Position numbers and translations under genes: made by a program. From the NCBI GenBank assembly GCA_963575745.1, contig CAUYUJ010000061.1:1-64000 (forward strand): a stretch of DNA of 64,000 bases. Reading direction: 5' to 3'. Source of the DNA: Prorocentrum cordatum. Lineage: Eukaryota. The notes beneath the pieces were generated by a model. That model searched no databases, was not told the origin of the DNA, and saw only the letters and a program-made list of their open reading frames with translations. Below are positions 5,836-63,817 of this stretch, one piece after another (the stretch's first letter is position 1; each line of letters starts with the position of its first letter).

Positions 5836-8800
5836 GCTTCGAGCCGCCGGAGCAGCTCGCGGAGGAGATGCTGCTGCTGCGGCGCGGCGGGGACGGGCTG
5901 GCCGCGTGCAGCACGGAGGTGGCCGAGTGGGACGAGGTGCCGCCGCGCGACCCGCCGGACGGCTTCGCTCTGGAGTGCAGGGGCGTGTGTATGCGGTGCA
6001 GGCAGGACCTGGACAAGCAGGCCGCGGCCGCGGCCACGGAGGACGACCTGTATCAGGTGGTGGGGCTCCGCACCGCGCAGAACCACATGGACCCGTGCTT
6101 CCGCTTCCCGTCCGATGACCTGCGCGAGCTTTTCGACCAGGCCACGCTCACGGAGAGCCTGCTCATTGCCCTGGACCACATGCAGGTGCACCTGGCCACG
6201 GTGTCCCGCACGGGGCTGCGCAAGTTCCGCAAGAACATCATCTCGTTCCCCCAGGATGTGGCAGGGTTCTCGCGGCGCCACGAGCTCATGAAAGGGTTCC
6301 GCGTGGGGGACCGCGTGAACTCGGCGCGCGGGCCCGGCGAGCGCCCCGACGACCCGCGCCGTCCCGAGCGCATGGCCGCGGGCTGCACGGACGAGGAGCG
6401 GCAGCGCTTCGGCGTGGACCTGCACGGGCGCCTGGTCTTCCCAGGGCGCGTCGTGGAGGTGCTGCTCAGCGGGGACGTGATCATCGAGTACGATGGGCGC
6501 GTCGTGGAGGTGCTGCTCAGCGGGGACGTGATCATCGAGTACGATCATGGAGGCAGGGGGAGGGAGCTCCAGGAGAACGTGGAGCCGCGGGTGGTGCTGC
6601 CCTGGCACCCCCGGAAAGTGCCCTTCAGCTTGATGTTGCGGCGGAATGTAGGGTTCGGGAAGGAGGTCGTGGAGGGCCTGCACGTGCGCTGGCGCTACTG
6701 TGGGCACGTGCTCCGGGCGTTGTGTGCGTTTGCGGGCACGTATGGGCCCTGGCGCCTGGGGGGTACTGCGGACGAGCCCATGCACAAGTACTACGACCCG
6801 CGCCTGTTTGACGTGCTCCCGGACGACGAGATCCTCGCGTCCTACGCGCCGAGAGAGAGCGAAGACGGCGTCCTGCCGTCGGGGGGCGAGGCCAGGGAGC
6901 CGGAGGAGCTTGGGCCCGTGACGGAAGCGGAGGCCATTGCTCGGGATTGCGTCCCCTGTGGCGTCGACGTCGTCACGCCGCGCCAGTTCATTGCCGCGGG
7001 CTTCGACGTGCACTTCGTCGGGCCCCGCGACGACGCCGGGCGCGAGCCTGCTGGCCGCGAGGGCGACGATGCGCGGGGAGGCGACGAGGGCGGCGCGGAG
7101 GCCGCGGCCGAGGGTGATGCCGATGCGGCGGCTGACGGGGAGTTCGACGTCGGCGTGGAAGATGAAGCCATGGCCGTTGATCACGACGTGTTCAGTGCGT
7201 GGCTCGACAAGGCGCAGTTTGAGTATGGTGGGGCAGTGCAGCGATGGTGGACGGGGTTGCAGCCGGAGGCGGAGGGCCAGTTGGAGGGGTTGAAGTTTGG
7301 TGACGACGAGACGACGGAGGACCTGTTCGGCCGCCTGCTGGCTGCGGCGCGGGAGGATAACGCCGTGAAGTCCGTGCAGAGGGACCGCGTGGCCGTGGAC
7401 TGCGTGCGCGTCGAGTTCCTCGTCGATTGGATGCGACCCCGTGTGCAGGGCCGGTTTGCCGGTGCGGAGGGCGGCGTCTCTCGCGAGTCGGTTTTGGACG
7501 AGGTGATGCTCGAGCTGGCCATGGCGGGAACGTTCGTGGCAGCTGCGCGCGATAGGGACACGGGGTGCGTCGAGGAGAACTTGCCGGAGTTTGACGAGGA
7601 CGAGGCAGTCGCGCGGACGGGTGAGCGCTTGATTTACGGCTGGCCCGGACAGAGCGAGGACCCGGTCCCGGCGCGCGCCATCGGGCGTTTCGCGAGGGCG
7701 TTCCCGTTGGAGTTTCCCATGGGCATCGGCGACCTCTTCGACGACCGTCCCCGGCGGGTGTCCGTGCAGGACTGGGTGCAGCACCTGATGCGCTACCGCA
7801 CCGGGCAGTTCGTCGGCGGCCCGCGTGGCCAGCGCGTGATGTGGGCCATGGTGAACGTGCTGCTCCTGAACGAGGCGCGGGGCAAGGGTTTTGGGGTGTA
7901 TCGGACCATGTACAGGCGCGCGGGCCTCGGCGTCCAGGGCCCAAGTGTGATGACGAAGGGCGGGCTCAGGCAAATCCTGGAGAGCGAGGACCGCGTGCGG
8001 ATCCTGGTGGGCCAGCTCGCGAACGTGGGCCGCGATGTGCCCTCGACCACCATGCACTGGTCGTATGAGTCGAAGAAGTTGCAGAGCACCGTGAAGCACC
8101 TGTCCTGGCACCCGCCCTGGGTCGAGGGCACTCAGGCGGACGGCGCCGAGCCGGTCGGCAGGCGGTTCCTCCGCGAGCTGGACCTGCCGGCGGGGAAGGG
8201 GCGGACTCAGCGCGGGCGTGCGCTTGTGCCGGATGTCGTCGGGCTCGGCCGTCACCCGTCCATTTGGTGGACGCAGAATCCGTTTTACAACGCCGCGTAT
8301 GACATTCAGCGCATGGGGGGAGGTCCAGGGGCGCGGGCGGCGGGAGACCGTGCTCTGGGGGATTGGGTTGGTGACGGGCGAGAGGAGCGCTTCCGTTTCG
8401 CGCGGGACAACCCGGACCTGGTGGCCTACATGATGGCCTTGCGGGTGGAGCTGAACATGCGGATGGTGATGCCCGCCGTACTGCCCCACTCGGAGCAGTT
8501 CAAGTACATGGCCATGGCCAGGGCCGAGTGTGGCGCGGGTGGCAATCTGCATTACCACGGGTTCAGCGTGGGGCTGCCTGGGCCGGCGGTTGCGCGGGTT
8601 CGCGCGGACGTGGACGGGGAGGGGGACATGCTTCCGCCGAGCGTGGCGAGCGACGTGGCGGCGTGCCTGCCCTCGCTTGAGGCAGGACCGCTGGCCTGGC
8701 CCCTGCAGGAGCGGAGGCGTCGTGGTGCTGCCCTCGCTGCCCTGGAGCAGGTCCTGCGCGCCGTTGCCGGCCGGCCTGGCCAGCGTGCGCCGCGGGCTCC

Positions 8801-11800
8801 TGCGGGTGAGGGCTCTGCGGCTTCGGGATCATGTAGTGAAGATGGCGCAGGCGACGACGAGGATGAGTTCGTGGGCAGGGCTTCTGCGCTCCTCGACGCC
8901 CTGGTGGATCGAGGGTGGCTGGTGCTCGTGCAAGGGGAGGAGGGCGTCCGCGGCCAGGGGGCGGAGGCCGACGTTGCTTTCGAGCGCGTCGGGCCAGAGG
9001 ATCCAGCGCCGGAGGACGAGGCGGGGGGTGATCCCGTGGAGGACGTTCAGGATGGTGATGGCGTTGAGGGCCGCGGTGCTGCTCGGGGGTCGAGACCTGC
9101 TGGGGTCCCCCACGGGGCCCGCGGGCAGCGACTAGGGGGTGCTGGTCTCGACTTCGGCGTGCTGAAGCCGGAGCATGAGGACGTCGCGCTGCAGAGCGTT
9201 TTGGAGAAGCGGTTCTATGAGTTCTTCGGGCACGTTGTCTCGGAGTGGAACCCGTGCTACGACGACGCGGGCGCGTGCAGGTACACGTGGGACGACGAGG
9301 TTGGCGCCTTCGACCTGGACGTGGAGATGGAGGGCGAGGCTGTGCGCGAGACGTCGGAGGGCCGGGCGGTGCGTAGCGTGCCCGCTTCTGCGCCGGAGTG
9401 CTTGAACTTGCGGAAGGTTCTGGACGAGGCCTTTGCGTCCGAGGCGTCGGGGAAGTTGGACGTGCAACCCGTTCGGCGACTGGTGGCTGCGCTGGTGAAC
9501 AGGGTGGCGCGGCACACGAAGCATGGCATGGGGCCGCCGCGGCTCGGGGTTCACGCGTGTGCTCGCGGAAAGGAGGGGTGCGTGTTCTGCCGATATGATT
9601 TCCCGCGCGACAGGTGGGGCCGCGTCGGGCCCCGGCCGTTCCGCATGGAGAAGGGCCGCCGGGAGGGCCACTGGCAGGCGGTGTTTCCGCGGAACGACAG
9701 GCTCTGCAATAGTTACGAGGAGCACGTGCTGTTGGCCAACATGGGGAACATTGACTGGCGTCCCGTTCTGAACTTGTGGGCGGTCGTGGAGTACGTCACG
9801 AAGTACGCGACGAAGGCGCCCAAGGGCTCGCGGAAGATCAAGGAGGTGCTCGACGACGCCGTCAACGAGGTCTGCGCTTACGTCCCAGAGGGCGAAGGGA
9901 CTGATTTCCTTCGGCGCTCCATTCAGAAGTTCTTTGCTCGGATGCTCGGGGAGCGGGACTACCACTGTTACGAGGTGGCGCTGCTGGGGTTGCGCCTGCC
10001 CATGGTTTTGTCCATGCTGCCCGTCGTGACCCTCAACACGACGGGGGCCCGCGCGCTGAAGCCTGCGTCTGCGCTGCGGGACAAGGCAGATGACGAGCCT
10101 GTGCACTGGGATAGCAAAGTGGACAAGTTCGACAAGCGCCTGGAGTTTGTGCGTCGGCAGCGTGCCAGGGGGGACGAGTCCATCTCGGTGGAAGAGGTGC
10201 GCGATGTGTCGTTGTTCGAATTCTATTGGAAGTACGCTGTGTACCGCGGGAAGCTGAGGCGCGGGAACCCTGCGGTGTGTCTGCAGGTGACCCCTGGCTA
10301 TAGCGCGGAGTGCGCGAACGTGCAGCACGCCTGCCACGAGGCGTACGCGCGGGCGAACGTCATCGCGCACTGGCGGCACATGGCGACCGCGGACCGCAAG
10401 GCCATGATCGAACAGGAGATGCTGAGGGACGTCCGGCCGGTGCCGGCGGCTTGCATTGGGGCCACGGAGTTCGTTCAGCCTTTGGCGGGCGGTGCTGGCC
10501 AGGATGCTGGAAGCGAGCGGTTCCTGGGCGTGCAAGATCTCTGGCTCAAGTCGGGGGGAAGGGCCTGGGGGGGGCAGAGCGATCAGTATTGGGGGCATAT
10601 GATGATGGAGATGCTCACTGACCCCATGCTCCGCCAGTGGGTTCCGGCGTGGGTCGTGGAGCAGTACGAGCGCGCGAACCCGTTCTACAAGGAAGTGCTC
10701 GGCGCCATCCTGGAAGACGGGGTCGCTAGCAACCGGGAGCTGCTGCGCCGGACGCGACGCGAAATGGTGAGGCGGCATGAGGCGGGCCAGCAGGGGCGGG
10801 GCGCGGGGGCAGAGGAGGCGGCGGGCGGCGCCGGGGGGCAGGCGTCCGATGATGGCTCTGGGCGCGGCGACGATGACAGAGACAGCGAGAAGGCGGAGTC
10901 GGGGGAGGAAGTGGAGGACTTGGTGGACAGACTCGTGCTGCGCGGGGACGAGGACCCGAACGAGGAGGCTCGGGATGCTGTCTTACGCGAGGCGCGGCCG
11001 GGGGAGGGCGCTGAGTCTGCTGCGGCCGCGGGGGAGGCGTCCGAGTGGGAGCGCCGCCCAGCCGATGAGCGCGTCAGCGCGGCAGGCCCTGCTGTGCAGG
11101 CGGCGGACGTGCGCGTCGGGGATGTTGCGGGCGATGAGGTGCGCGGCAGGGTCCGGGTGAACCCCAAGGACTTCAATTGGTTGAACGAGGCGTGCAATGT
11201 GTCGACGAGCGAGAGAGGGCGTCTGGAGAAGCTCCGGGATGAGTGGTACGGAAAGGCCAAGGTAGGCGACGGGGCCGAGGTCGTCGAGCGCGCCGATCTC
11301 GACCCCTGGCAGAAGTTCGCCCACGACATCGTCATGGACGACCGCCATTCGGAGGCCGACCCGTTGAGATTGATGGTCACGGGCGTGGCCGGCACGGGGA
11401 AATCGCGCACCGTGCGCAGTTTCGTAGCCGCGAGGCGAAAGCGGGTGCGGCAGTTTGCCCCGAGGACGAGGCTGGATCAAGATCGCCGCGGCGTGCGCGA
11501 AATCCGACGAGGGCCTGAAGAGATTGATGAGGAGGAGCGGAATTGCTGCTTGCTCGCCGCTCCCACCGGGTGCGCCTCGTTCCAGTTGAAATATGGCGCG
11601 ACCACCCTGCACAGGGCGTTCGGTGTGCCGGTGGGATATTGCGGCCCTTGGGTACGCAAGGACGGGGACCGGTTTCAAAAGACGCAGACTCGACTGCGTC
11701 AGGCGAGGTTGTTTGTGTTGGATGAGATGAGCATGATCGGGCGGCAGATGCTGGGCAAGATCGAGTTCAAGGTGCAGGATACTCTTGGTGTTGCGGCGAA

Positions 11801-14800
11801 GCGTGCGGCGCAGGGTGCGAGGCCAGTGTATCTCGGCGGGAAGGATGCCGTGCTCGCCGGGGATCCGCAGCAGGCGCCGCCAATCGGCGATGACCCCCTG
11901 TACCGGATGGGCGCGTATGGGGGGTCTGCGAAGAACAAGCCCAGGGGGGCGGAGCGGACCCCCGACGACGCCTGGAGCACGGACAGGTTAGTGAATAATG
12001 GGAGTTTCGTGCGCGATACGTTCCAGGACGTGGCCGTGCTCCGGCGCGTGCACCGGTGGCGCGGTGAGAAAGAGGGGCTGTCGAAGGAGCGGCAGGCGGA
12101 GTACAGGCAGGATGCTGATCGCTTTTTGGAGGTCACGAAAGGCATGGCGCAGTGCACTTGGGAGCAGCGGGATCATGCGTGGTTGAAGCGCCGGAACAGG
12201 TCGGTGCTGCAAATGACCAAGGAGGGGAGGGAGGAGCTGGCGGCCTTCGAGACGGCCCCGCTGCTGATGGACGGCAGGAAGGATCGGGCCTCGGGTGCAT
12301 GTGGCGCCGATAGAGTGAACATGGAGAGGTTGTACCAGGTAGCCGCTGCGAGTGGTAAGCCCATCGCGGCGTTGCGTGCCTACCACGACAAAAAGGAGAA
12401 AAAGCAGAAGTCTAGGCCAGACCAGATGGCGTCCGAGGACTTCCGCGGACTCGAGAACGAGCTGTACGTCTGCGAAGGGGCCCGCGTGCTGTTGACTCAG
12501 AACCTCTGGGTTGAGGCGGGGCTCATGAACGGGGCGATGGGTACGCTGCGCGGCTACATGTGGCCCGAGGGCGCCGACCCGCACAATGGCGCTCGGCCGG
12601 ATTTGCAGGCGCCCCTTTGCGTGTTCGTCGAGTTCGATGATATCGATCTAGGGACAGACGGGCAGGGTCGGCCGCGGTCGTTTTTCCCGGGAGACGAGGA
12701 GCGGCGGAACTGGGTGCCCATTTGGAGGCAGAGAGTGTCTTCCACCATGGAGGAGGGCGTGTGGCGCGAGAACTACCCGTTGCAGCTGGCATGGGCGTTG
12801 ACGCACTGGAAGGCGCAGGGGATGACGTTGGCGAAAGTCCGCGTGCACCTGTCAGCGAAGACCGCGGCCGTTGCAGGGATCGGTTTCGTCGCCACGACGC
12901 GTGTGAAGCATCCCTGGGACTTGGTGTTCGAGGAGGACCTGCCGGAGTATGCGGACTTCATGAGGGCCAGGCATACGACGGCGTTCCGGGAGCGGCGACG
13001 CTTCGAGTTGCGACTGGAGGCTCGCGCTTCCCGCACGTTGCGGAAATACGGGTACTGCGAGGCGGACTGCTGGACTGAGGAGGAGAAACGCGCGGCGGAG
13101 ACATTGCTGGGTCGTTTGAAGACCGTTGCCGCGGCTCAGGCGGAGAGGTTGAGAGGGGCGGGCAGAGTGGTGGATGAGGACACATGGCTGTGGGGTGAGG
13201 AGGGGCCGCCTTTCGCGTCCGAGCTCGACAGCGCCGTTGCTGCCGAGGCTGGAGAGGACGACGTCGCGGCGCGGCGCCTCCGTGCCGTGGCCGAAAGGCT
13301 TCTGGACCGGAGGCGGGTGCGCTTCGCGACGCGGGAGGAGAAGGGCGCCGCGCGGGATCTGCTTGTTGATGTCGGTGCCCTCGCTGCTTGTGCGTCCCGG
13401 GAGGATTTGCGCGAACGTCTGACGGCTGCTGCCGGGCGCCTGACGCATGAGTCTTCGGGTTCGGGTGACAGGGAGGGGTTCCTGCGCGGCGTGGTCGACT
13501 TGATTGTGGAGCGGTGGGAGGCGTCTGGGGCGTGGGATGAGCGAGTGTTCGATTCCGTGGCTCCGAGCATGGGCCCGCTGCATATGAGCGCCGTGAAGGA
13601 GGCCATGGGCGCGCTGGTGCCCCCGCGCCTGCATAAGAGTTTGGATAAGGCGGCGAAGAGGATGAAGGACGCGTTCGGGGACGTCCGTGGTGGCTGCGCG
13701 CTGCGCATGGACAAGTGGGTCGTGAACGTGCGAGCGGAGAGCGCGCTGGCAGAGGGCAGGCTGGAGGGCCAGGCGCTGGAGTTCTTCTTGAAGGTGGCGA
13801 GGCAGTTGTGCGCGGGGTTGGGGCTGCCGACGACTGTGGCTTCGGCAAAGGTAGGCCGGCACGTTGGTGCGGAGGAGACCCCGGAGCATTTTGCCCGGAT
13901 TGCGCACAATTGGACGAGCGTGTGGGATGCGAACTCCGTGAGTGACAAGCAGGAGTTGCTAATGGTCGTCGCCGTGGACCCACTGAGCGGATCTGGTGTC
14001 GCGCAGGATTGGATGTTTGTGAGTGTTACGTCTGGTCGGCCGGGGGAGGCGCTCGGGCGAGCCGAGTCTCTCGCAGTGCGCGTGCACGATCGGGCCCGCA
14101 GGGAGGACGTGGCAGGGCGAATCGCCCGGAATATCGACGCACTGCTGCGACCGCTCGGTGCCAGTGCTGGGCGGCGCCCGCCGGCGGTGGAGTTCGGGGA
14201 CGCGCCGCGCGTTCGTGTTCCTTCGCAGAGGATCGCCTGCGCGCTCGGGCTTCTGCTGGGCCGTGTCGGGCGCCTGGCGAATGCGGGCGTGCTGGATGCG
14301 TCGGCGGAGTCCTTCGTGCCTGACGTGTGTCGCGTGCTGCGGGGCGCGTTCGCGTCGTTCCGGGCGGGCGTCGGCGCGCGGGGGGCGCGGGATGTCATGG
14401 AGTTGTTGCTTTCGGAGCAGGAATGCCGCGACGTTCTGGGCGCGTTCGGCGTCGTGCCTCGCGCGGGTGCTTCGGCGCCCAGCGCGACGGGCGCGAGCTT
14501 GCCGAGGGCGGCTGTGCCAGGGGAAGCGGCGGGTGAGGCTGGCGAAGAGGAGGGCCTGGAGGGCGCGTCGACGTTGTCGTTTGCCACGTGGAATATCGCT
14601 GGTGGGCATCGCTCGGCCGTGGCGCCGCCCTCCTGGAGCGACCGCGACCAGCGCGCGGCGGTCCTGGGCGAAGTGCTCCGTTGGAGGCAGGCGCGCGGGG
14701 TTGATGTCGTTGCTCTGCAGGAATGCGAGGGCGAGGAGGCGTACAAGGAGCTGGAGGCGGAATTCCAATTGGTTGGCGTGGCCCATGCGCACGAGTCCAG

Positions 14801-17800
14801 GGGGTACGTGCACCTGTACGTGAGGCGCGGTCTGCGCGCGGAAGGCAAGGCTTTGTCAGGGGAGGACCCGTGCGTGCTGTGCCGGGTCGAAGTTCCCGTA
14901 GGCGGGGGCGCGGGCGGCGCGGGGTGGGTGAACGTGGCCGCGGTCCACTTGCCCGCGGGTGCGGCATGGGAGCGGCGTCACGCGATACTTCGGAAGATTA
15001 CGAGGACTTGCGCGGAAGGTTGCGACCGGCTGCTCATTGTGGGCGACATGAACAGCACGGACTCCCAGGTGCAGGCCGCTGTGGAGCAGCTGCGTTTGAA
15101 GGACACCTGGTACGAGGGTCGTTCTTGGGGCTGCCCCGGGAACAAGTTTTACTCGGGTCTCGGCGAGAGGGGGGCTGTCGGACAGAGACGGGACCGGGTC
15201 ATGTTCGGGGCGGAGCTTTGGGCGGAGGTGCATTTGGTAGGGAAGGGGAAAGTGTTCTTCGAGGGCTGCGAATTCCATGTGTCAGACCACTTTGGGCTGT
15301 TCGGGTATGTGCGTGCCCACGCGTGCTTCGGTTCTCGCGAGCATAAGATGAGGGCCCTGGCGCAACGCTGCCGGCTCGCGCTCCAGGCGACGCGCGATCG
15401 GTCGCACCGGCTGGAGGGTGCCGAGGTCCAGAATCGGTTGCAGCAGGGGCGGGAGGCTGCGGCCTTGGCGAGGCAGCAGGCGCAGGACCGAAACCGGGAG
15501 GCGTACTTGCGAACGCAGCAACGCGAGGCAGCCCGAAGACAGCGCCGTCGGGAAGAGCTGGTGTCCGCGGCGTTCGGGCCGCAGAGTTTGTTCGCGTCGG
15601 AGCGCCCGGCTCAGCCTCCGCCGAGCCCTGGAGAGATGGACGTGCCTCGCGTGGATGGTATTCGCGCGGCTTCGTGGGACAGCGTGAGTAGCGTGCCCGT
15701 CCGTGGGATGCCGCGGCCTGGGCATTCTTGCTACGTGGTCAGCGTGACGCAGCTGATGCTGCGGACGCCTGCCGTCTGGGAGTGGCTTCGATGGCACGCG
15801 GAGGGCGATTGCGAGGAGAGGGCCAGTGGGCGTTGCTGCGTCTGCGGGATGTGGGACACGCACAATCAGTTGGTGTCGCGACGCTGGCAGGGCGGACCCG
15901 TGAGCGTGCGGCGGCGAACGAATGTTGATAGCGAGGACGTTTTCCTCGGGCAGCCCAGTGAGTTCGACAACGAGTGGCAGCAGCATGATGTGTTTGCGTA
16001 TTGGGGTAAGCTGATGTCGGCTGCGCGCCGCGGAGAGGAGTTGGCCGGACGCTTTGCGTCGTGGGACCCCGAGAGCATTCGTGCGACGAACATGCGCGTG
16101 ACGCACGTGGATCGGATGTTCGGGTTTGTGATGGAGAAGCGGCAGAAATGCCGTCAGTGCGGGCACTTGTCCGTCTCGTACGAGGCGGAGGATGTTCTGA
16201 AGCTGCGGGTCCACGCGCGGCCCGGCGGGCCGATGATGTTGTCGGAAATGTACTCCGACTTTTGCGCGCCTGAACAAGTTGAGAAGAGCTGCCCAGCGTG
16301 TTGCCGCGCGGATGCCGACCGGGTTTGGCACGACCAGCAGACGCGACTCACGGGCGTGCCGCGCGTTTTGGTGGTTCAATTGAGGAGGGGCCATGAGGCG
16401 CGGCAGCCCGTGTGGGTCGAAGAGCAACTGAGGCTGCATGGGCTTCCCCAGATGCAGCTGGTTGGCGTTGTGTACCACAATGGGCAAACAGTGCATACCG
16501 GTCACTATACGACGTTGTGCCGCGTCCCTGACGGGGGCTACGTTTTGTTTGACGACGACAAGCCGCCGCGCAGGATGCGAGGCGAGCCGGCGCACGTGAA
16601 GCCGAAGGAGGCGTACATGGCGGTGTACTGTCGCATGGGGCGCAGTCAGGGGCAGAGCGCCGACGCGGGGGCACCAGGGGTTGGCGGGGCGCCAGATGAG
16701 CAGAGCGGTGGAGGGGGGGGCGGGGCAGGCATCGGGGGTGTGGGAGCTGGCGGGAGTGAGGTGACTGGCGTCGGTGGCGGTGGCGCCGGCGGCGCGAGCG
16801 CCTCGGGTCTCGGCGCGCGTTGCCGCGCTGCGGGGCGGCAGCCTGCAGAGGTCGCGGCGGAGAGCGAGGCGGGGTCGAGCGTGCGGGCGCCGGTGCCGGT
16901 CCGGGCGGGTGCCCCGCTTACGCCGGAGCGCGAAGGGGGCGATGGTGTCCTCAGCTCGCCGGCCACGGCCAGGCGCGTGCGGCGGAAGACTCCGGCTTCG
17001 CCGTCCGGGGAGATGCGCGGCGTCGATGCCGGCGGGGTCGCCGGGAGTGGCGCGGCGACGGCGAAGGGCGGGGTGCTCGGCGCCGCGCGTGCCGTGGGCG
17101 CGGCGGGCGGCCCGGGCGCGAGCGGCGGGGTCGCTGCGGGGTTGGGCTCTGTGCGCGGCGGAGGAGGGGGAGGGGGAGGAGGAGGGGGAGGTGCGGGACG
17201 AGGAGGGGGAGGTGTGCGAGGAGGTGGAGGAGGGGGTGGAGGGGGGTGGGCCGCGGGCTCGCCCGTCGGGGCTGCGCCGCATTCCGCAGCGAGGCGCGCG
17301 CGGAGGAAGAGGGCGGCGTCGCCGTCTGGCGCGGGCTGCGCCTCCGCTGGCGACGGAGTCGGTGGTCGCGCCGAGACGAGGCTGGGTGGCGGCGCCAATG
17401 GCGCGGTAGAGTCTGGGGACGTTGGCGGAGGGAACGATGGTGCCGCTGGGAGAGATGCGCGAGGTGGGGGCGGCCTTGCGAAGCTGCGTGCGGGCGGCAA
17501 AGGCCGCGGCAAAGCGGGGGGGCACGCGGCTGCGTCGGGCGACGCAGAGGTGGCTGTGGAGGAGCCGGGAGTCTGCGCGGGGAGAGGATTGCCGGGGGCG
17601 GCCAGGGCGTCCGCGCCAGGGGGGAGAAAGCCGGAGACTGTGCCAGAGGCAGTGGCTCCGCGCAGGTCTGCCCGGCTGGCGGCGCAATCTGCGCCTGGCG
17701 CGGTCGCGGGTGAGGGGGCGGGGGCGGGCGAGGGCGCGTTTGTTCGCGCGGGGGTGCTGCTGCGCCCGAAGCGCGTGGAGCGGGCGGAATCTTCGCGCGG

Positions 17801-17999
17801 AGGCGGCGCCGACCGAGTGGTGACAGGTTTCGGTTCAGAAAGGGTCGAGGACTTGGCTGCTTTCCAGCGCGGCCGCGCTCGGGCGGATGCGACGCGCGCG
17901 TCGCAGCGGGTGTCGGGGGGGACCCGGGGGTTGGCCGTGGACATGCAGGGGAATGAGCTGGATCGGTCGGCGGGGTCCGCCTGGCATTCGGGCCGATAG
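5836..17999 (+). CDS. Helentron RepHel polyprotein: Helitron N-terminal region, HUH Rep, PIF1-family SF1B helicase, AP/EEP endonuclease, USP/C19 peptidase
   Basis: AFPLEFPMGIGD; Rep motifs PSIWWTQN (~8256), ECGAGGNLHYHG (~8526-8561), YVTKYATK (9792-9815); Walker A GVAGTGKS (11382), APTG, DEMSM (~11721), GDPQQAPPI, LAWALTHWKAQGMTL (~12786); EN TWNI/LQE/GDMN/SDH (14580-15300); USP GHSCY, QQHD, GHY, FDD, AYMAVY (15705-16630). Confidence 0.92.
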
Positions 18000-21020: not shown

Positions 21021-21270
21021 CTCGTGCCCGGTGCGTTGCCGCGCCGGCTGACGTCGATCCTATTTTCGCATGCTTGTCCATCTGTACATGTCTACATACA
21101 GGTGCGCTGCCACGGAAGCATCGCTCTCGCGCGCTGGAAGACGCCTTGAAACTCATACATGTATGTGTTCATTCTATTATTGGAAATAAATTCACCGTGC
21201 GCATTCCAGAGATATGCATGGACTTATGACACGTGGCTAGGAGCTCTACGAGGTAGCCATTTTGGCTCAA

Positions 21271-21306
21271 GGAAGCTCTACGAGGTGTCCGGCGGTAACC
21301 TGGTTG
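21271..21306 (+). other. Helentron 3' subTIR, left hairpin arm and loop (LINE target; right arm displaced to 27051-27083)
   Basis: GGAAGCTCTACGAGGTGTCCGGCGGTAACCTGGTTG matches intact ends such as 44419-44476. Confidence 0.9.
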
Positions 21307-21698
21307 TGCAGAGCTTACCTCCTGCTCAGCCTGGCCTCACCGCTGGGGTCCCCTCGTCTCGAGCTGCATTGTGCAGTAGGGAGTCTTCGGTTCCACATAC
21401 TGTACACGGAAGGCGGAAGCGCGGGAATCGAAATCTGGCGGGGCATTCCTTCACAACGTGGTTCCACATACTGTACACGGTGCTTCAGAGCCTGTTTTGC
21501 CTGAGTACCGCGGGTGCACATATCAGATTGTTTCTCCGTATTGCTCCAGTGGTGGGGAACTCTCAATACTTTGGGATTGATTCTTGCCAGAGCTTGTCAG
21601 TTTTGCTCCCTGTGCACATTTCTGTGGACTCTGTCACACGTGTGTTCATTGAAGTTGGCCACAATATACAACTCCGTCGCACGAGTGCCCATTAGAGT

Positions 21699-22820
21699 AT
21701 GGCGCTTCCAGTGTCGGGCAGCCGGCGCAAGAGAGAAGACGACGGGGCTGAGGGCATGGACGCTGAGAATGTACTAGATGCTGATATCCACGGATTGGCT
21801 TTTGATGAACAGAATCCCATGAAGCAATTCTTCGAACTGGGAAAGCAGCAACTGCAGCAGCAAAGAATTACTGACCGCAAGGTGACAGGCATGGTTAACG
21901 ATATGGCTACCATGCAACGACGGCAGGATAGTGCTGAACGACGAATGGCTGAAGGCCAGGCTCAGATGGATAAACGAATGACAGATCTTGAGAAGCAGGT
22001 CTTAGAGCTCAAGTCGCATACTGCTGCAGGTTCTGGGGCATCCACTGGTGCTACTTCTGCTGGCTTTGGGGGTGAGGCGACTTGGCCAAACGAGAGCAGG
22101 CGTCCATTCCGAGCCTTCAATCCAGAGTGGATCGATTTTCGTGGATGGGTGATTGACTGGAGTAATCCGATTCGACGGTCAGAGCAAATGATTTCAGATC
22201 GGGACGTGGGCATTCTCATTCACAACTTGAAGATGAGCCTTCCAGAGGATGACCGTGCGAAGATTGACGAGCTTGGTACGCTTCGTATGAATGGGAATCG
22301 TCCCAACTACGCAAACTTCCGCATCAAGTTTACCACTGGTACTGAGTCAGACGTACTCTGGAGGTGCAAAAAGTTTTGGGAAGAAGCTCTGATACCGCCT
22401 GAGGATCGAACTGAGGAGCAAAGGTCTCTTGCCCGTCCGACACCACAGGATCTTTTCAAAGACATGGACAACAGACCGTGTGCGGCTGGAGGCTCCATTC
22501 GGATCAAGACACAGGCACCGCCATGGAAAGAGGACCACATCAATGCTGTTGGCAGATTCCATGGTGTGTGGCGCGATACGGTCGTTGCGAGGAATCCTGA
22601 TACGCCAATGAAGATCAAGGGAGTGCCTGGGAGTGGAAAGGGGGTCAGTGTGATGTGGACCATTCCCCCATGTCTCCGTACCAAAAGAAGCATGGAGCTG
22701 GCCAAGTGGAAACAGGATACGGGCACTTGGACTGTTGATCAGACGGTCTGGAACGAAGTTGTCATGACATACGGCATCGCCACGACCCACAAAGAAATGG
22801 AGGATGCACTCGGACAATGA
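21699..22820 (+). CDS. LINE ORF1 protein (coiled coil + unknown globular domain), 373 aa
   Basis: ATG start; heptad-like N-terminal segment; blocks shared with family 2 ORF1 (NPMKQxF, FxP..GW, PWKxxHxxAVGR). Confidence 0.85.
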   Translation: MALPVSGSRRKREDDGAEGMDAENVLDADIHGLAFDEQNPMKQFFELGKQQLQQQRITDRKVTGMVNDMATMQRRQDSAERRMAEGQAQMDKRMTDLEKQVLELKSHTAAGSGASTGATSAGFGGEATWPNESRRPFRAFNPEWIDFRGWVIDWSNPIRRSEQMISDRDVGILIHNLKMSLPEDDRAKIDELGTLRMNGNRPNYANFRIKFTTGTESDVLWRCKKFWEEALIPPEDRTEEQRSLARPTPQDLFKDMDNRPCAAGGSIRIKTQAPPWKEDHINAVGRFHGVWRDTVVARNPDTPMKIKGVPGSGKGVSVMWTIPPCLRTKRSMELAKWKQDTGTWTVDQTVWNEVVMTYGIATTHKEMEDALGQ

Positions 22821-22844
22821 GGGTGCTGCGAGAGATCCAAAAGC

Positions 22845-25800
22845 ATGGCTCTCGCTACTCTCGCGGCAGGCACACTCAATGTTGCGAGAGCTGGGCGGCT
22901 CGAGTCTCGGGCGTACGCTATTCTACGAGCACTACATGGGGTAGGCTTAAATGTTGTGGCTTTGCAAGAATGTCAAAACGTGGACTTCAATGACACCTTA
23001 ATTCAGCGTCTGGGGTGGGATGCTGCTTCAAAAAGTACTTGCATGCGGGCAGCGGTGCTTCTCAAACGTCGCCACCTGCCCCACATGATAGCCTCTTATC
23101 AAGCAGATCGGGTTGCGATGATTGTTCATCGATCGGGAGTTTGTTTCACTAGTGCTTACTTTGCTGATGCGTCTCATCCAGATGCTCCAGAGATATGCAG
23201 ACGGATACTGCATGATGTACGCCGCCTGCACCGACAGGCTCAGGCCAACCATGGCCATCACTTTCGCCTGTTGCTTGCCTGTGATGCCAATGTGGAGCTC
23301 ACGCCAGAGTTGGAGGTGGATGGGAGGAGGGTGACGGGACCAGGACTCAGAAGATCGAGGGAGAGGGGACTTGGTCGGAACGGTGCCATCGATTTGGAGG
23401 ACAGGAGGGCCAAGGAGGTGTGCATGAGGGACCAGATTGAGGAGTTCTTGGAGGAGGAGGAGCTGGCTGCGATCAACACTTTTGAAGCACGGGTGCCGAC
23501 CTACTGGCACTTCGGTGAGAGTGAGCCCACAAAGGTTTTAGATTACATCTTGGCGCCCAGGCAGTGGACAGTAGAAGATATCTCGTACAGTTGGTTGCAG
23601 GACGGGCGTGTGGCACGTTTGAGCGATCATGCAGTAATCAAAACCCTGTTGGCCCCAAGGGAACCCCAGCAGATGTACCGACACAAGGTTGTTCGGCCAC
23701 ACGTCACGGCACGCCGGGCATTCGAGTCCCACAGAGAGGAGTTCTGTTTCAGAGCGTTGGTGGACATTGGTATTGAGGCCACACGCCCTGACGAGATCGC
23801 GAAGTCGTTGCATCAGCATGCGTTGCCTCTGCTTAACCCGCCTTCCTCTGCGCATCGTGCACATGCTAAGTCTAAAGAGCTAGCAGATCTTCAGCATCAG
23901 TATCGTGGAGCCCGTGGGAATCCTGATGAGAGAAAGCGCCTGAGGGAACTTATGAGGCCCCTGGTCAAGGCAGATAGGCGTAGTGAGATCGAGTATACCT
24001 TCGCGAACTCCCGCAAAAGCAAGAAAGTGAATGTCAAGTCTCTGAAGATCGACGGGGAGATGACGGAGGATCGTAAGAGGTGGGTGGAGGAGGGGATGAA
24101 GCAGCACAGCTTGAACACGATGACGAGCGAGGAGGAGAGGATGAGGAACAGCGAGCTGGTATCTGACTTACGGCGACGTGCACGAGCAGCTAGGGCACAC
24201 AGCAGCAGCAGTACGATGCACGACATGCGCATGCAGCTCACGATGGGGGTGGTGAACGAAGCACGTGCACGATTGCGATCTGGCAAGAGCTGCGGCCCAG
24301 ATGGGGTCAGCGTGGAGCTCTTGAAGGCTTTGGCGTGGCGAGCTGTTCGCCAGATTTTCCATGTGTTTCGAGATATCTTTCAAGGTGATCGTCGGTCACC
24401 TGACTGCTGGAGAGAGGTACTCATCACGCTGATGCCCAAGCTGATGAATCTTGATTCGCTCACACAAACACGCAATCTAGTTGTACAGAACACGTTAGGA
24501 AAATGGTACCTCACCTGTGTTACTATCCTTATCGAGAGGCATGCTGAACAGTACATGGGGCGATTGGGCTTGTATGGTTTCGCACAGGATCGGAGGACGT
24601 GGGAAGTAGCGGGACCCCTTAAGGCCATCTCACAGCATGCGAGTGTTTGGGGGAAAGATAGAAAAGCGTTCTTCTGTTCATGTGATATAGCACGAGCCTT
24701 CGACCATGTTAAGCTCACTACTTTGGCACGCGCGATGCACATGCTTAACATACCTGTACAGCTACAATATGCTCTGATCGAGCCCTTAACTGACACGACG
24801 GGCACGCTCACGTTCGAGGGCCTGGAGTTAGGTGGGGTACGATGGGATCGATCTCTCAGAACGGGGGGTACCGAGTCTCCCCTGTGCTTTAATTTGGTTG
24901 TGTTGGCCATGTGGGCGGAGGTCATACAGAGGTGGGATAATGAACGTATAGGTGTGGAGATCCCGTACAGCAACATGCACGACATGACGCGCGCACATGT
25001 TTACAATCATGCGATTTGGGCAGATAATATATATCTCGTGGCCAGTACATCGGCTCAGATGCAGCTGATGATCAACACACTCACTCACGCTTTACGTACA
25101 TGGGGACTAGAGTGGAAGTCAGATTCACTTGAATCGATGGTGGTGGGCGACCGCGATACCACTACTTTCTTCGCTGATATCCAGGGGGTGCAGGTCCCGT
25201 TCAAGTCAGTCTCTCAGCTGAATGTGTTGGGAACGATCGTCTCGCAGCAGTATGGGGGCACGCACGAGGACATACAATTTCGGGTTGAGTGTGCACGGCG
25301 CGCGTTTTATGGGCAAGCTAAGTATTATCGTTGTCGTGCTCTCCCTCTTCGTAAGCGGTATCGTCGGTATCAGAGCCTGGTACAGAGTGTATTAGCATAC
25401 GGATTGGATACATGTACGCTGGACCCTGAAGGTGTTCGATTGCTGCATACCTTTGAGGGCAGATGCCTGCTGGCCATGCATTGTCGAAGGAAGCCTGCGG
25501 GACAGAGATGGGAGGTCTGGAAGCCACATATGCTTGACACAGCGAGGGCTTCTTTCTGCTCGCTGGGATTTCCTAGCATCGTCCAGATCGTGGCGTGGAA
25601 GAGTTGGAGCGTCGCGCATTCGGTAAGCACGGCCTACGGCAATTTTGACTTCACAAATCCTGGGCCTCCCCGGTGGACAGGCCCAGGTTCAGGAGTAAGT
25701 TGTGAGGATGGGGTCTCGAGCGGCTCTCAGCAAAATGATGGCGCTGACGGCCGACGTGTTGTACGCAAGATTGAGCCACATCCTGATACCACGAGACGTG

Positions 25801-26867
25801 CATTTGTTGATTCTCGCACGGCATTGCTTTGTACACACAAGACTTGGGAAGCGCACCGCATGGCTCTCACTGAATGTCTCCGCTGTCATGGAGATCGTAG
25901 GCGTGCCTCTGAAGGCAAACGGCTGCGCGCGGGAGGAGATAGTGTTGGGCAGCGGTCTTGGCAGTACCCGTACATACAGACTCATGGGGATGAGTGGTGG
26001 GAGACCTTCCGACCAGGATATGCCACATTTCTGCAGACATGGGAAGCACTTTTACGCACGTATGGTAGGCCTAAGATATTCGAGTACTTCTGCACGAATT
26101 GGAAACAGGTACCAGGAGGAGATGTTGGGAGAGAGTGTAAGGAGGGAACTGGAAGGAACGAGGAGGCGACGGAGGAGGAGAACATGAAACAAGCAAGACG
26201 GTTGGCGATTATTAATGAACGGGAAGCTGTATTTGATATCATGTCGAACGGAGTTGGAATTGAGATCAAGGGAGACTCTTTGTTGGTCCAGAGCTGGCTT
26301 ACGGGACGTTGGCGTTGTCATAATCGTGCATATCGTGAGCGTGTACACAGGTGTGTCAATGACATGTACGCGCTTAGCCTTTCACACCGAGCACGGGCAT
26401 CGAACGTTGGGAGAGACATATTTGTACATGAATTTCGTGAAGCAAACACCCGAGCAGACGAACTTACTCATTTGGCCAGGGATGGCCACACATTTCATCA
26501 TAACTATTGCCATCGATATCCTTTCGAACGAGATTCTTTGAAGGTAGTCGCCTGTCGTGGAGGGTACGACGGGGGAGTGTGCAGCAAGGGCAGTGCATGC
26601 GGTTACTGGATGCAGGTTGGCTATCTCAACATGTCCTCACGGGCGTCTCGGCATGGAGTGTGTTCTACACGATACTCCCCCTACCCGACCTCTTCCTCTC
26701 TACATTATCATGCTGACACACCGTTGATTTGGAGAGACGCTGCTGCTGCGGCCTGGCTGGAGCCAGGCGCCACGATCACCGAATGTGAGTTGTCCGCTGC
26801 CGAAGCATTGACACGTGCCATACGCATACAGCTACAGCAATTTGATGACAGTGATTTTGCTTCTTGA
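22845..26867 (+). CDS. LINE ORF2: AP endonuclease, reverse transcriptase (WADN), permuted RNase H
   Basis: GTLNV, LQE, DAN, LDY, SDH (APE); GPDG, DIARAFD, RTGGTESP, WADN (25017-25028), LG (RT); GDS...NTRAD...YDGG...ECEL (RNase H). Confidence 0.93.
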   Translation: MALATLAAGTLNVARAGRLESRAYAILRALHGVGLNVVALQECQNVDFNDTLIQRLGWDAASKSTCMRAAVLLKRRHLPHMIASYQADRVAMIVHRSGVCFTSAYFADASHPDAPEICRRILHDVRRLHRQAQANHGHHFRLLLACDANVELTPELEVDGRRVTGPGLRRSRERGLGRNGAIDLEDRRAKEVCMRDQIEEFLEEEELAAINTFEARVPTYWHFGESEPTKVLDYILAPRQWTVEDISYSWLQDGRVARLSDHAVIKTLLAPREPQQMYRHKVVRPHVTARRAFESHREEFCFRALVDIGIEATRPDEIAKSLHQHALPLLNPPSSAHRAHAKSKELADLQHQYRGARGNPDERKRLRELMRPLVKADRRSEIEYTFANSRKSKKVNVKSLKIDGEMTEDRKRWVEEGMKQHSLNTMTSEEERMRNSELVSDLRRRARAARAHSSSSTMHDMRMQLTMGVVNEARARLRSGKSCGPDGVSVELLKALAWRAVRQIFHVFRDIFQGDRRSPDCWREVLITLMPKLMNLDSLTQTRNLVVQNTLGKWYLTCVTILIERHAEQYMGRLGLYGFAQDRRTWEVAGPLKAISQHASVWGKDRKAFFCSCDIARAFDHVKLTTLARAMHMLNIPVQLQYALIEPLTDTTGTLTFEGLELGGVRWDRSLRTGGTESPLCFNLVVLAMWAEVIQRWDNERIGVEIPYSNMHDMTRAHVYNHAIWADNIYLVASTSAQMQLMINTLTHALRTWGLEWKSDSLESMVVGDRDTTTFFADIQGVQVPFKSVSQLNVLGTIVSQQYGGTHEDIQFRVECARRAFYGQAKYYRCRALPLRKRYRRYQSLVQSVLAYGLDTCTLDPEGVRLLHTFEGRCLLAMHCRRKPAGQRWEVWKPHMLDTARASFCSLGFPSIVQIVAWKSWSVAHSVSTAYGNFDFTNPGPPRWTGPGSGVSCEDGVSSGSQQNDGADGRRVVRKIEPHPDTTRRAFVDSRTALLCTHKTWEAHRMALTECLRCHGDRRRASEGKRLRAGGDSVGQRSWQYPYIQTHGDEWWETFRPGYATFLQTWEALLRTYGRPKIFEYFCTNWKQVPGGDVGRECKEGTGRNEEATEEENMKQARRLAIINEREAVFDIMSNGVGIEIKGDSLLVQSWLTGRWRCHNRAYRERVHRCVNDMYALSLSHRARASNVGRDIFVHEFREANTRADELTHLARDGHTFHHNYCHRYPFERDSLKVVACRGGYDGGVCSKGSACGYWMQVGYLNMSSRASRHGVCSTRYSPYPTSSSLHYHADTPLIWRDAAAAAWLEPGATITECELSAAEALTRAIRIQLQQFDDSDFAS

Positions 26868-33180: not shown

Positions 33181-34937
33181 TCAACAATTCGTTTGAGCTC
33201 TAGTATTTTTTCCCGTGATATTCGATCTTATTCCCGCTCGCCATCTTGATCTCAGCTCGATCGGGTAACTTTGAAGGCCAAAAAGCACTGTGGCGGGAAC
33301 CGCCGTTTCGAGTCATCTTGACAGGCGCTGTCGGTTTTCTGAACATAACTCGAGCTCTAGGGCAGCTACAAGGCTTGGTAACATACTAAAATGCATGCAG
33401 AATGGATCAGGCGCGTTTTCGCCTGTTTGATCCCAAGGGCTGGAAACTCGGTCTGTCAGCCGAGCTAGGTCCGCCAAACGCTGTTTTGTATTATTCGAGT
33501 CCATGTTTGAATACGCGTTGTTCCATATAATTTTCTACTTAACTCGAGCTGTAGGGCAGCTACAGTGCTGGTAAGCACACCTATCGCACTCAGAATAATC
33601 AGGCGCGTTCGCCTGTTGAATCGATAGGTCTGAACTCGGTCTGCTAGGCGAGCTAGGTCCGCAAACCTATTCGTATTATTCGAGTCGACTTGATACGCGT
33701 TGTCGGTATTTTCTACTTAACTCGAGCTGTAGGGCAGCTACAGTGCTGGTAAGCACACGTATCGCACTCAGAATCATCAGGCGCGTTCGCCTGTTGAATC
33801 CAGAGCTCTAATTCGGGCTGTATGGAGGGCTGCAGGGCGGGTAATCACAGGAATCGATTCGGAGACATCAGACGCGTCCGTCTGTCGCATTGAGAGGTCT
33901 AAACTCGGTCTGATACTCGAGTTGGGCTCAAAAACTCTTCGTTCTCTGCAATTTTTTCCGACAGTATATGTTGTCAGGAAGCTCGACGAGTCCCCCGGCG
34001 GTAAGAAAGGTTGACGGTTTACCGCCGGCGCCCATCGATGAGCTAGAGGAATTCCGGCGCGGGGTGGAGCTAGTTGGTCGACCCGACCAGAAAGGACAAA
34101 GTGTTAACTTTTGGGTGGTTTTGTCATACCTCGTAGAGCTCTTCGGCATCGATGAGCTAGAGGAATTCCGGCGCGGGGTGGAGCTAGTTCGCCGGCCCGG
34201 CCTTAAGAGACAAAGTGATGACTTTGGGTCGGTTTTGCTGAGATTTGAAAGATATTTGACAATTATTTTTGAGAAACCATATTTTTCTCACGTGCAGTGG
34301 GTTATGCCGCGTCTGCCAGTAAAATTTTCAGGTCCGTAGCTGCAATATTACTATCGAAAGACTTGCAGGAACCGATTTTGGATGGAAACCGAAAAATCGT
34401 TCGGATCTCGCTTTAGAAGTTTCCCTGATCTGTTCTGAGGAGCGCCGCTGTGCAACAAAAGGACTCTACGAGGTGCCCGGCTGTGCAACAAAAGAACAAA
34501 AGGCTCAAGCTGCATTGTGCAGAAAGGAGTCTTTGGTTCCTCATACTGTACACGGTGCTTCAGTGTCTGTTTTGCCTGAGTACCGTACACGTTCAGTGAT
34601 TGTCGGAGTGCGCATTGACTGTTCAGATTGTCGGAGTACCGTGCGCTTTCATTGAGTGTCGAAGGCCTGTGCACATTCTTTGTGGTAGCCTACGAGTACC
34701 GTACACACTCATTCTTTGCTTGACTCAGATTCCCGCACGCGTGCTGCAGAGTGTCTTTTGCCTGAGTACCGTACACACTCTTTGGAGGTCGAGTTTGACA
34801 TCTGTTCAACACTCTTGTGAGGACATCTGTTCGACACGACGACAGATTCTAAGCGTTCGCGTGAGGACATCAATTTCTTGGAACAGTGGGGGTTTCCAGA
34901 GGAGCTCAAGTATTCGAACACCGTCACCTTCGCAGCG

Positions 34938-63793: not shown

Positions 63794-63817
63794 GGGTGCT
63801 GCGAGAGATCCAGAAGC

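What the first reader, a model, noticed from the sequence alone, without database searches (positions are those of the whole stretch)
21308..21510. Conserved, multi-hairpin 5' leader shared by both LINE families and the RT-less element
Seen: the core AGCTGCATTGTGCAG-nnn-GGAGTCTT(C/T)GGTTCC(A/T)CATACTGTACACGGTGCT occurs at ~21362, ~34509, ~55385 and ~62407 although downstream sequence is unrelated. Potential stems: GAGC-TTACCTCCY-GCTC; CCTGGC/GCTGGG, which is CCTCGGC/GCCGGGG in the RT-less element (pairing retained); CTGCA-TTG-TGCAG; and a C(UUCG)G-capped hairpin. Known: trypanosomatid ingi/RIME/L1Tc elements share a 5' signature acting as promoter and HDV-like ribozyme. I could not fit a known ribozyme here. 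Inference: an internal promoter or a structured/self-cleaving RNA that frees the element from host-element transcripts.
Basis: partly seen in the sequence, partly recalled or inferred. Interest (0 to 1): 0.7.

Follow-up and report, generated by a model that had tools for sequence, protein, structure and literature searches.

The report
LINE leader pairing with its target
Jumping genes in a dinoflagellate-type genome share a leader whose first half is a near-mirror copy of the DNA site they land in, so their RNA can fold back on target-derived sequence, and one copy shows that its RNA start was made by the cell's spliced-leader machinery rather than by a recognisable ribozyme.

Summary
The shared leader is real: 6 core matches against 0.01 expected, in three lineages rather than four. 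All five elements sit in the terminal hairpin of Helentron-type transposons. In the three copies that keep it, the leader's 5' half is an imperfect reverse complement of the ~36 target bases upstream, giving a ~95-nt hairpin (z about -6; -0.05 to -2.3 without the flank). Its transitions are G·U-type (5 to 0), and family A's arm fits one target subtype best. One copy begins with 19 nt of dinoflagellate spliced leader joined at the hairpin's base, where most hosts have AG. Best reading (0.5): read-through transcript, released by trans-splicing, keeping a target-homologous tag as some R2 elements do with a ribozyme. No Rfam ribozyme fits; an HDV-like topology fails in L3. A separate 54-nt core hairpin shows no covariation and looks swapped between families. 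The scan already noted hairpin-targeting and SL-headed LINEs elsewhere in this genome; none of the notes shown mentioned leader-target pairing. Bold reading (0.12): the arm guides target choice. Evidence rests on two arm lineages; no RNA data.

The parts
21240..21252 (+). 3' subterminal repeat of the host Helentron into which LINE A1 inserted; the left hairpin arm that should follow is missing at this junction
21253..21271 (+). Last 19 of the 22 nt of the dinoflagellate spliced leader, exact
   Evidence: SL sequence in PMC6050394; chance 4e-7 in the window
21272..21306 (+). RNA-borne copy of the target's upstream half (subterminal repeat, left hairpin arm, loop); 5' strand of the long hairpin; loop type CCTGG differs from CCAGG at A1's own 3' junction
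21308..21325 (+). Apical stem-loop of the long hairpin; one A-U/G-C compensatory change between A and C
21326..21365 (+). Target-complementary arm of A1, an imperfect reverse complement of the ~36 nt upstream
21362..21409 (+). Shared core hairpin, first copy in A1, cut off at 21409
21410..21459 (+). 50-nt insert of unknown origin between two core copies
   Evidence: no other match over 13 nt in the window
21460..21484 (+). Second, partial core copy starting at GGTTCC in the loop; continues into the A 5' UTR
21699..26867 (+). LINE A1: ORF1 (21699-22820), one TGA, ORF2 in frame (22821-26867; endonuclease, RT, RNase H-like end). A-tail ends 27052, target resumes 27053
34506..34585 (+). Core plus 26-nt extension in LINE B; arm absent; untidy 5' junction with target deletion and short repeats. 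Target resumes at 40416
51179..51204 (+). RT-less element C1, 5'-truncated at (T)GGTTCC in the core loop. Target resumes at 52433
55289..55325 (+). Target flank of RT-less element C2 (subtype T-I)
55326..55435 (+). Full leader of C2: apical stem, target-complementary arm (about 55353-55387), core (55382-55435); ATG at 55442. Target resumes at 56663
62315..62350 (+). Target flank of LINE A2, preceded by AG
62351..62457 (+). Full leader of A2: apical stem, arm (62369-62409), core (62404-62457)
5631..17999 (+). Host context: Helentron/HLE2 frame with DUF6570, HYH and YxxKY motifs, PIF1 helicase, endonuclease, UCH
   Evidence: group features

Best explanation
A two-part RNA leader for LINEs that live in the terminal hairpin of Helentron-type transposons. 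Step 1 (shown): all five elements lie in that hairpin in one orientation, and the four visible 3' junctions fall at the same place. Step 2 (shown for A1, likely for C2): the template RNA starts upstream, in host sequence, so it is a read-through transcript. Step 3 (shown for A1, inferred for the rest): its 5' end is made by spliced-leader trans-splicing just before the host's 3' subterminal repeat, leaving ~36 target-derived bases on the RNA. Step 4 (computed): the first ~58 nt of the leader fold back on those bases, giving a ~95-nt hairpin whose base lies 2 nt from the splice junction. Step 5 (inferred): the hairpin hides the internal AGs and shields the tag, so the RNA keeps target homology, and the cDNA end can anneal to the next target for a seamless 5' junction, as proposed for R2 elements that cut upstream in 28S rRNA. 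Step 6 (inferred): the downstream 54-nt core is a separate hairpin, probably a protein-binding or processing site, moved between families by template switching.
For: Same-site insertion: (5 of 24 listed hairpin left halves lead into a leader; 4 of 4 visible 3' junctions agree). Folding z -5.99 and -6.46 with the flank (0 of 200 shuffles each) against -0.84, -0.05, -2.26, -1.01 without. Flank-leader duplex reached by 0, 0 and 2 of 1000 leader shuffles and by none of 1130 LINE-body windows. The A arm on target subtype T-II pairs 32 of 36 target bases. Transitions against the best-fitting target are all G·U-type: 2 in A and 3 in C, one shared, plus A62382G in a contig of run X1; 5 distinct against 0 of the pair-breaking type. 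SL joined directly to the flank. AG precedes 12 of the other 22 listed subterminal repeats (13 of 23 with the SL's own AG). Host AG unpaired 0.74-0.93; internal AGs at most 0.16 except one at 0.82. Loop type differs between 5' flank and 3' junction in A1 and C2. Core 49-51 of 54 nt identical between elements with 24-30% protein identity (A, B) or none (C). R2 precedent: PMC3774820, PMC11331408.
Against: Only two arm lineages (A, C) and three copies, plus one contig variant. Only one clear SL junction. The apparent SL relic in B (GGCTCAAG at 34502) is weak: GG and CTC can come from a target duplication, the A from a CpG transition, and the 8-mer occurs at 2 unrelated places. A1, the one copy proven to carry the full tag, did not form a seamless junction. 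The A arm fits T-II (-50.9, -52.4 kcal/mol) better than the flanks it sits behind (-39 to -42), which a purely cis hairpin does not predict. C discriminates weakly (-45 to -46 on T-I, -44.7 T-III, -43.4 T-II). The G·U tally uses the best-fitting reference, which biases it; the arm also has transversions and gaps. Sense-antisense energy gap is only 2-6 kcal/mol. 10 of 23 subterminal repeats lack the AG at that spot. The core has no compensatory change. Two copies start in the core loop, which this model does not explain.
Confidence: 0.5

Rival explanations
1. Neutral relic. The arm arose once by snap-back synthesis or capture of an inverted Helentron end, and the leader spreads by template switching among elements sharing a target. 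Trans-splicing frees the RNA and the pairing does nothing.
For: Snap-back and extra-template junctions are described for R2 protein (PMC11331408). A1 has a doubled core with a 50-nt insert. Inverted host copies exist in the window. The core has no covariation.
Against: A and C share the apical loop and right end yet fit different target subtypes. Transitions are 5 to 0 in favour of G·U. One compensatory change in the apical stem.
Confidence: 0.17
2. Guide. The arm pairs with the top strand of the target DNA (R-loop) during integration and helps choose or open the site, so part of the specificity is RNA-encoded.
For: The A arm fits T-II better than the flank its RNA carried, and A1 landed in a site with T-II marks at both junctions. 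Both C copies, which have no RT hit, sit in T-I sites that fit their arm. Helentron ends are plausibly single-stranded at times (inference).
Against: In an RNA carrying the flank the arm is already paired in cis (-47 to -59 kcal/mol). T-I is common (9 of 22 listed halves, 10 with one variant), so two C hits are unremarkable. B-family protein and elements lacking the arm were not tested, and endonuclease specificity may suffice. No such natural case appeared in the listing.
Confidence: 0.12
3. Self-cleaving RNA: either an atypical HDV-like ribozyme with P1 supplied by the target (as in many R2s), or an unknown motif that cuts in the core loop just before GGUUCC.
For: A permissive descriptor finds P2, P3, a GG for P1.1, P4 and a CGA joiner in the A leader; by inspection the target's AGGUUG would complete P1. 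A1's second core and C1 both start within 1-3 nt of the same loop position.
Against: L3 lacks the G of the U·G pair whose loss abolished cleavage in an R2 ribozyme (PMC3774820). C has no clean P1. The descriptor gives 0-5 starts per 400 nt of background. P2 probability is 0.00 with the flank, and the compensatory change supports the rival apical stem. No Rfam ribozyme at E up to 10. A1's template was uncut. C1's start has GGT microhomology with the target.
Confidence: 0.09
4. The core is an internal promoter or DNA-level protein site, like Pr77 of L1Tc/ingi; the hairpins are incidental.
For: The core is conserved in sequence without covariation. It survives in B without the arm. A GAGTACCG word occurs 4 times in B's 5' UTR and once in each A copy.
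Against: A1's RNA started upstream of the leader and was trans-spliced, while Pr77 makes unspliced RNA from +1 (PMC8190864). It does not explain the target complementarity. C1 lacks half the core yet is 99.5% identical to C2, which fits a truncated copy. The only promoter scan on hand is bacterial and says nothing here.
Confidence: 0.08
5. The long hairpin is a pre-miRNA-like precursor whose small RNAs are antisense to Helentron ends and modulate the host transposon.
For: Size and shape give weak generic matches to miRNA precursor models (best E 0.053, far below gathering scores).
Against: Such matches are expected for any long hairpin. Dicing would destroy the element RNA's 5' end. No small-RNA data.
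Confidence: 0.04

Closest known systems
R2 elements whose HDV-like ribozyme cuts up to 36 nt upstream in 28S rRNA (PMC3774820, passages; PMC11331408, passages)
   Same: Site-specific element transcribed by read-through; mature RNA keeps target-derived 5' bases that pair with element sequence and can anneal the cDNA to the next target.
   Different: R2 pairs ~7 target bases (P1) inside a ribozyme; here ~30 target bases pair in one long hairpin, no ribozyme consensus is met, and the one visible RNA end is a spliced leader. These are two-ORF elements with an AP-type endonuclease in another transposon, not in rDNA.
Pr77 hallmark of trypanosomatid L1Tc/NARTc/ingi/RIME/SIDER (PMC4035085 and PMC8190864, passages)
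   Same: One 5' module shared by autonomous and non-autonomous elements in an organism that trans-splices.
   Different: Pr77 is an HDV-like ribozyme plus promoter giving unspliced RNA from +1. Here the RNA was trans-spliced upstream, and half the module mirrors the target.
Target-specific AP-endonuclease LINEs of the Tx1 and R1 clades (PMC4640811, passages); Tx1L in the DNA transposon Tx1D (recalled, also named in scan notes; not found in the passages read)
   Same: LINE with fixed insertion site inside another repeat or transposon.
   Different: Target is a Helentron end hairpin. Clade membership was not tested by a tree. I know of no target-complementary leader in these (recall plus searches listed in the report).
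Dinoflagellate retrocopies with SL relics (PMC6050394, passages)
   Same: Genomic spliced leader as proof of reverse transcription from a mature RNA.
   Different: Here the SL tags a LINE and is followed by a copy of its target site, which maps the trans-splice point of a read-through transcript.
Helentron/HLE2 and HINE ends (PMC4067079 and PMC11417382, passages)
   Same: Describes the host: short subterminal repeats, 3' stem-loop, T after the end, DUF6570, endonuclease, UCH.
   Different: This is the target, not the leader. The leader rebuilds a longer hairpin over the disrupted end.

Membership tests
HDV-like ribozyme | Nested double pseudoknot P1, P1.1, P2, P3, P4 | tested here: inconclusive
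   Permissive descriptor finds the topology in A, not cleanly in C; background 0-5 starts per 400 nt; P2 probability 0.00 with flank, 0.62 only in flank-less A1.
HDV-like ribozyme | Conserved G in L3 forming a reverse wobble with U | tested here: not met
   Candidate L3 is UUACCUCC(U/C), without G; importance of this G in PMC3774820.
HDV-like ribozyme | Match to a curated covariance model | tested here: not met
   No Rfam hit at gathering score in the window; no ribozyme family at E up to 10 for A2, A1, C2. B was covered only.
HDV-like ribozyme | Self-cleavage 5' of P1 | not testable with these tools
   Needs an assay. A1's template kept sequence upstream of the candidate site.
Hammerhead, hairpin, hatchet, twister, pistol ribozymes | Family core words or Rfam match | tested here: not met
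   Recalled core words: no CUGANGA, no hairpin loop B, no hatchet words in A2, C2, B; single stray 4-5 nt words only. No Rfam match.
Pr77-type hallmark | Shared 5' module on autonomous and non-autonomous elements | tested here: met
   Core 49-51 of 54 nt identical among A, B, C.
Pr77-type hallmark | Unspliced RNA beginning at +1 of the module | tested here: not met
   A1 carries SL plus 35 nt of flank upstream of the module; one copy only.
Pr77-type hallmark | Internal promoter activity | not testable with these tools
   Only a bacterial-type scan is available.
R2-like upstream-processed co-transcript (works like, not member) | RNA keeps target-derived 5' sequence | tested here: met
   A1 (SL plus flank) and C2 (5' loop differs from its own 3' junction and from the sister host at 57982). 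A2 is uninformative.
R2-like upstream-processed co-transcript (works like, not member) | Uniform, seamless 5' junctions | tested here: inconclusive
   2 of 5 insertions look seamless (A2, C2); A1, B and C1 do not.
R2 clade | Single ORF, restriction-like endonuclease, 28S target (recalled definition) | tested here: not met
   Two ORFs, N-terminal AP-type endonuclease, Helentron target.
AP-endonuclease LINE | ORF1, endonuclease-RT ORF2, A-rich tail | tested here: met
   RT E 1e-10 and 2e-9; endonuclease weak in A (E 0.002) and 5e-5 in relative P0010; tails of 5-6 A.
Tx1 clade | RT phylogeny | not tested
   No named reference sequences were held; relatives are unnamed.
Helentron/HLE2 (host) | Short subterminal repeats, 3' stem-loop, T after the end, DUF6570, endonuclease | tested here: met
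   21 of 22 right ends followed by T; inverted repeats on both strands; domains (DUF6570 below its cut-off, E 6e-4); criteria. No empty site was checked.

The most novel reading that the evidence does not exclude
A natural LINE whose own 5' leader reads its target by base pairing: the ~40-nt arm pairs with the target's top strand and biases insertion to matching Helentron subtypes, even for an RT-less element moved in trans, while host trans-splicing supplies the 5' end. This would be RNA-guided site choice in a eukaryotic non-LTR retrotransposon.
Probability: 0.12. Interest if true: 0.92.

Novelty: new variant of a known kind. Interest (0 to 1): 0.64.

Why it matters
It suggests a third way for a site-specific LINE to get a usable 5' end from a host transcript, besides an internal promoter or a ribozyme: borrow trans-splicing, and fold the target-derived tag into a hairpin. 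The arm appears to track sequence variants of another transposon's end, which would be base-pair-level co-adaptation between two mobile elements. Target homology at the RNA 5' end governs junction precision in R2-based gene insertion (PMC11331408, passages), so a natural 36-nt tag with its own cover strand is of practical interest, more so if the arm affects site choice. It also ties LINEs to SL-tagged retrocopies in dinoflagellates, where the responsible element type is stated as unknown (PMC6050394).

Tried and rejected
More copies: the metagenome scan gave 4 loci, all chance 19-mers in ~35% GC DNA with no further similarity. The viral scan gave 1 chance match. The protein-based viral scan found 39 pattern hits, none confirmed. 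No whole genome is held for this window, so no genome-wide leader set could be built. Sequencing runs: one run listed, no RNA holder listed; its contigs show at least one further leader variant and empty targets but cannot show RNA ends; 6 of 39 loose ends and 8 of 2338 pieces were displayed, none with SL. The word-index protein search found nothing; the profile search found unnamed relatives. Rfam: no ribozyme. No tRNA in the leader (one gene at 14374 only). Arm as a direct copy of a Helentron end-to-start junction: scores 19.5-25 against 35.5-38.5 for the best inverted-target model, rejected. B's GGCTCAAG as an SL relic: considered, left as weak (about one in three). Covariation in the core: none among 3 sequences (one search used a structure string one column off and is void). 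3' UTR complementarity to the target was computed without a control and is not claimed. Promoter scan is bacterial and uninformative. Earlier scan notes by sequence: none.

Full report
Observation. The core pattern occurs six times exactly, against 0.01 expected. The four stated places are right within one base. They belong to three lineages. Family A has two copies, A1 at 21.3 kb and A2 at 62.3 kb, 95% identical. Family B is at 34.5 kb. The RT-less family C has two copies, C1 at 51.2 kb and C2 at 55.3 kb, 99.5% identical. A and B are related LINEs: ORF2 30% and ORF1 24% identical, each with endonuclease, RT and an RNase H-like end (the RNase H label rests on weak Pfam hits in relatives and on inspection). 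Their 54-nt cores are 49-51 of 54 identical, and A and B share 25 of the next 26 nt. Such identity beside such diverged proteins points to recent exchange or strong selection; three sequences cannot separate the two.

Setting. The window holds one long Helentron frame (DUF6570, HYH and YxxKY motifs, PIF1 helicase, endonuclease, UCH) and many nested non-autonomous copies with 178-bp arrays. Their right ends are a 13-nt subterminal repeat, a stem-loop and a short tail followed by T in 21 of 22 cases, which fits Helentron/HLE2 as described in PMC4067079 and PMC11417382 (passages). Of 24 listed left halves of this hairpin, 5 run into a leader and 19 are intact. All 4 visible 3' junctions are a 5-6 A tail followed by the first loop base; A2's 3' end lies beyond the window. 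Earlier scan notes report the same targeting in other pieces of this genome; I reached it before reading them.

The main new point. Folded alone, the leaders are unremarkable (z -0.84, -0.05, -1.01; C2 -2.26). With the ~36 upstream target bases they fold at z -5.99 and -6.46, 0 of 200 shuffles each. The reason is that leader bases ~19-59 are an imperfect reverse complement of the flank: loop, left arm and subterminal repeat. The duplex is reached by 0, 0 and 2 of 1000 leader shuffles, and by none of 1130 windows from the LINE bodies. An inverted-target origin fits better than a direct copy of a Helentron end-to-start junction. The A arm fits subtype T-II best (-50.9 and -52.4 kcal/mol, against -39 to -42 for its own flanks), pairing 32 of 36 target bases. 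The C arm fits T-I only slightly better than the others (-45 to -50 against -43 to -45). Against the best-fitting target, transitions in the arm are 2 (A) and 3 (C) of the G·U kind and none of the A·C kind, one being shared. A contig from run X1 adds A62382G, again G·U, C62392G, which would extend the helix, and C62402T in a bulge (placed on the fold by hand). That is 5 to 0, or 1 in 32 under a symmetric null, with the caveat that choosing the best reference favours this result and that transversions and gaps also occur. The apical stem has one two-sided change, A-U to G-C; the two other two-sided columns in that call come from an uncertain alignment and I do not count them.

How the RNA end is made. 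A1 begins with the last 19 nt of the dinoflagellate spliced leader (sequence in PMC6050394, passages; chance 4e-7), joined directly to a second copy of the subterminal repeat, then left arm, loop and leader. So this copy came from an RNA that started in host sequence and was trans-spliced 2 nt before the base of the hairpin. AG precedes this position in 12 of the other 22 listed hosts, after a U-rich stretch in T-I hosts. In the fold the host AG is open (0.74-0.93) and internal AGs are paired (at most 0.16 unpaired, except 55315 at 0.82). The RNA-borne loop (CCTGG) differs from A1's own 3' junction (CCAGG). C2 shows a similar mismatch, and its sister host at 57982 has the 3' type. A2 is uninformative because hosts with its loop type exist. 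B lacks the arm and has an untidy junction; its possible SL relic is weak. Scan notes describe SL-headed LINEs and an SL-plus-target retrocopy elsewhere in this genome; these are unchecked leads that agree, not evidence.

The core. Downstream lies a second hairpin of 18 pairs, 53 of 54 cells paired in A, B, C, with no two-sided change; its main stem has probability 0.83-0.97 but its stability alone is ordinary (z -1.0). Variation sits in a 3-nt internal loop, with a fourth variant in X1, the apical loop and one closing pair. Two 5' ends, A1's second core and C1, fall within 1-3 nt of each other in its apical loop. This may mark a processing or protein-bound site, but C1's junction also has target microhomology. 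I cannot explain it, nor the 50-nt insert in A1.

Ribozyme test. Rfam gives no hit at gathering score in the window, and no ribozyme family at E up to 10 around A2, A1 or C2. A permissive HDV descriptor finds the topology in A, with P1 to be completed by target bases as in many R2s, but background is 0-5 starts per 400 nt, C has no clean P1, and the candidate L3 has no G; loss of that G abolished cleavage in an R2 ribozyme (PMC3774820, passages). The supplement of that paper, with all R2 active-site alignments, was not read and could show more L3 latitude than the passages did.

Mechanism. Best reading (0.5): read-through from the host, SL trans-splicing at the host AG, a hairpin that keeps and covers a ~36-nt target tag, and annealing of the cDNA end to the next target, by analogy with upstream-cutting R2s (PMC3774820; PMC11331408; passages). 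Shown: same-site insertion, the complementarity, one SL junction. Computed: the fold. Inferred: what the fold is for. Against it: two arm lineages only, A1 itself joined imprecisely, only 2 of 5 junctions look seamless, and the A arm fits T-II better than its own flanks. Rivals: neutral relic 0.17, guide pairing with target DNA 0.12, self-cleavage 0.09, internal promoter 0.08, small-RNA precursor 0.04.

Comparison and novelty. It works like an upstream-processed R2 but is not an R2 and fails the HDV-like tests. It resembles Pr77 in being shared, but Pr77 yields unspliced RNA from +1 (PMC8190864 and PMC4035085, passages). Target-specific AP-endonuclease LINEs are known (PMC4640811 and PMC3706591, passages); the Tx1L/Tx1D case is recalled. 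Searches (listings and abstract starts only, except papers named above) showed no report of a LINE leader that is a long antisense copy of its target, or of LINEs in Helentron hairpins; passages of PMC3229502 and PMC11453091 had none either. The library lacks most subscription journals and Repbase reports, so this is not proof of absence. Scan look-ups by sequence and by words showed no note on the pairing (each shows at most 8 of the notes that fit). Verdict: real, a new variant of a known kind, interest 0.64.

Noticed in passing
window 22818-22826, 63791-63799, 36012-36020: ORF1 and ORF2 are in frame, separated by one TGA in the same context (TGA, then RGG TGC) in families A and B despite 24-30% protein identity. 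B's ORF2 has no in-frame Met before the first endonuclease strand, which suggests stop read-through or an unusual start.
   Followed up: partly
window 21410-21459: 50-nt insert between two core copies in A1, with no match in the window; possibly a template jump or the UTR of another family.
   Followed up: partly
window 34578, 34634, 34694, 34764, 21503, 62476: The word GAGTACCG occurs four times in B's 5' UTR and once in each A copy, and nowhere else on the + strand.
   Followed up: no
window 51211-52137 and 55442-56368: The RT-less element keeps an open frame of about 308 codons starting 6 nt after the core, with a ~105-nt internal repeat and a coiled-coil-like end, unrelated to ORF1 of A or B.
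   Followed up: partly
window 59800-59848, minus strand: A non-autonomous Helentron copy appears to have inserted at a T inside the loop of another copy's terminal hairpin, close to the LINE site.
   Followed up: no
window, last ~200 codons of ORF2 in A (to 26867) and B (to 40193): RNase H-like end shared with relatives P0001, P0002, P0007, P0010; a scan note calls it circularly permuted, which I did not test.
   Followed up: no
window 14374-14465: ARAGORN calls a tRNA-Asn inside the Helentron frame; probably spurious in GC-rich coding DNA.
   Followed up: no
window 62309-62485 on run X1: Summed contig depth is several hundred times higher on the target hairpin than on the leader, so occupied targets look rare in that run while 5 of 24 are occupied here; the tool warns that depth is not copy number.
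   Followed up: no
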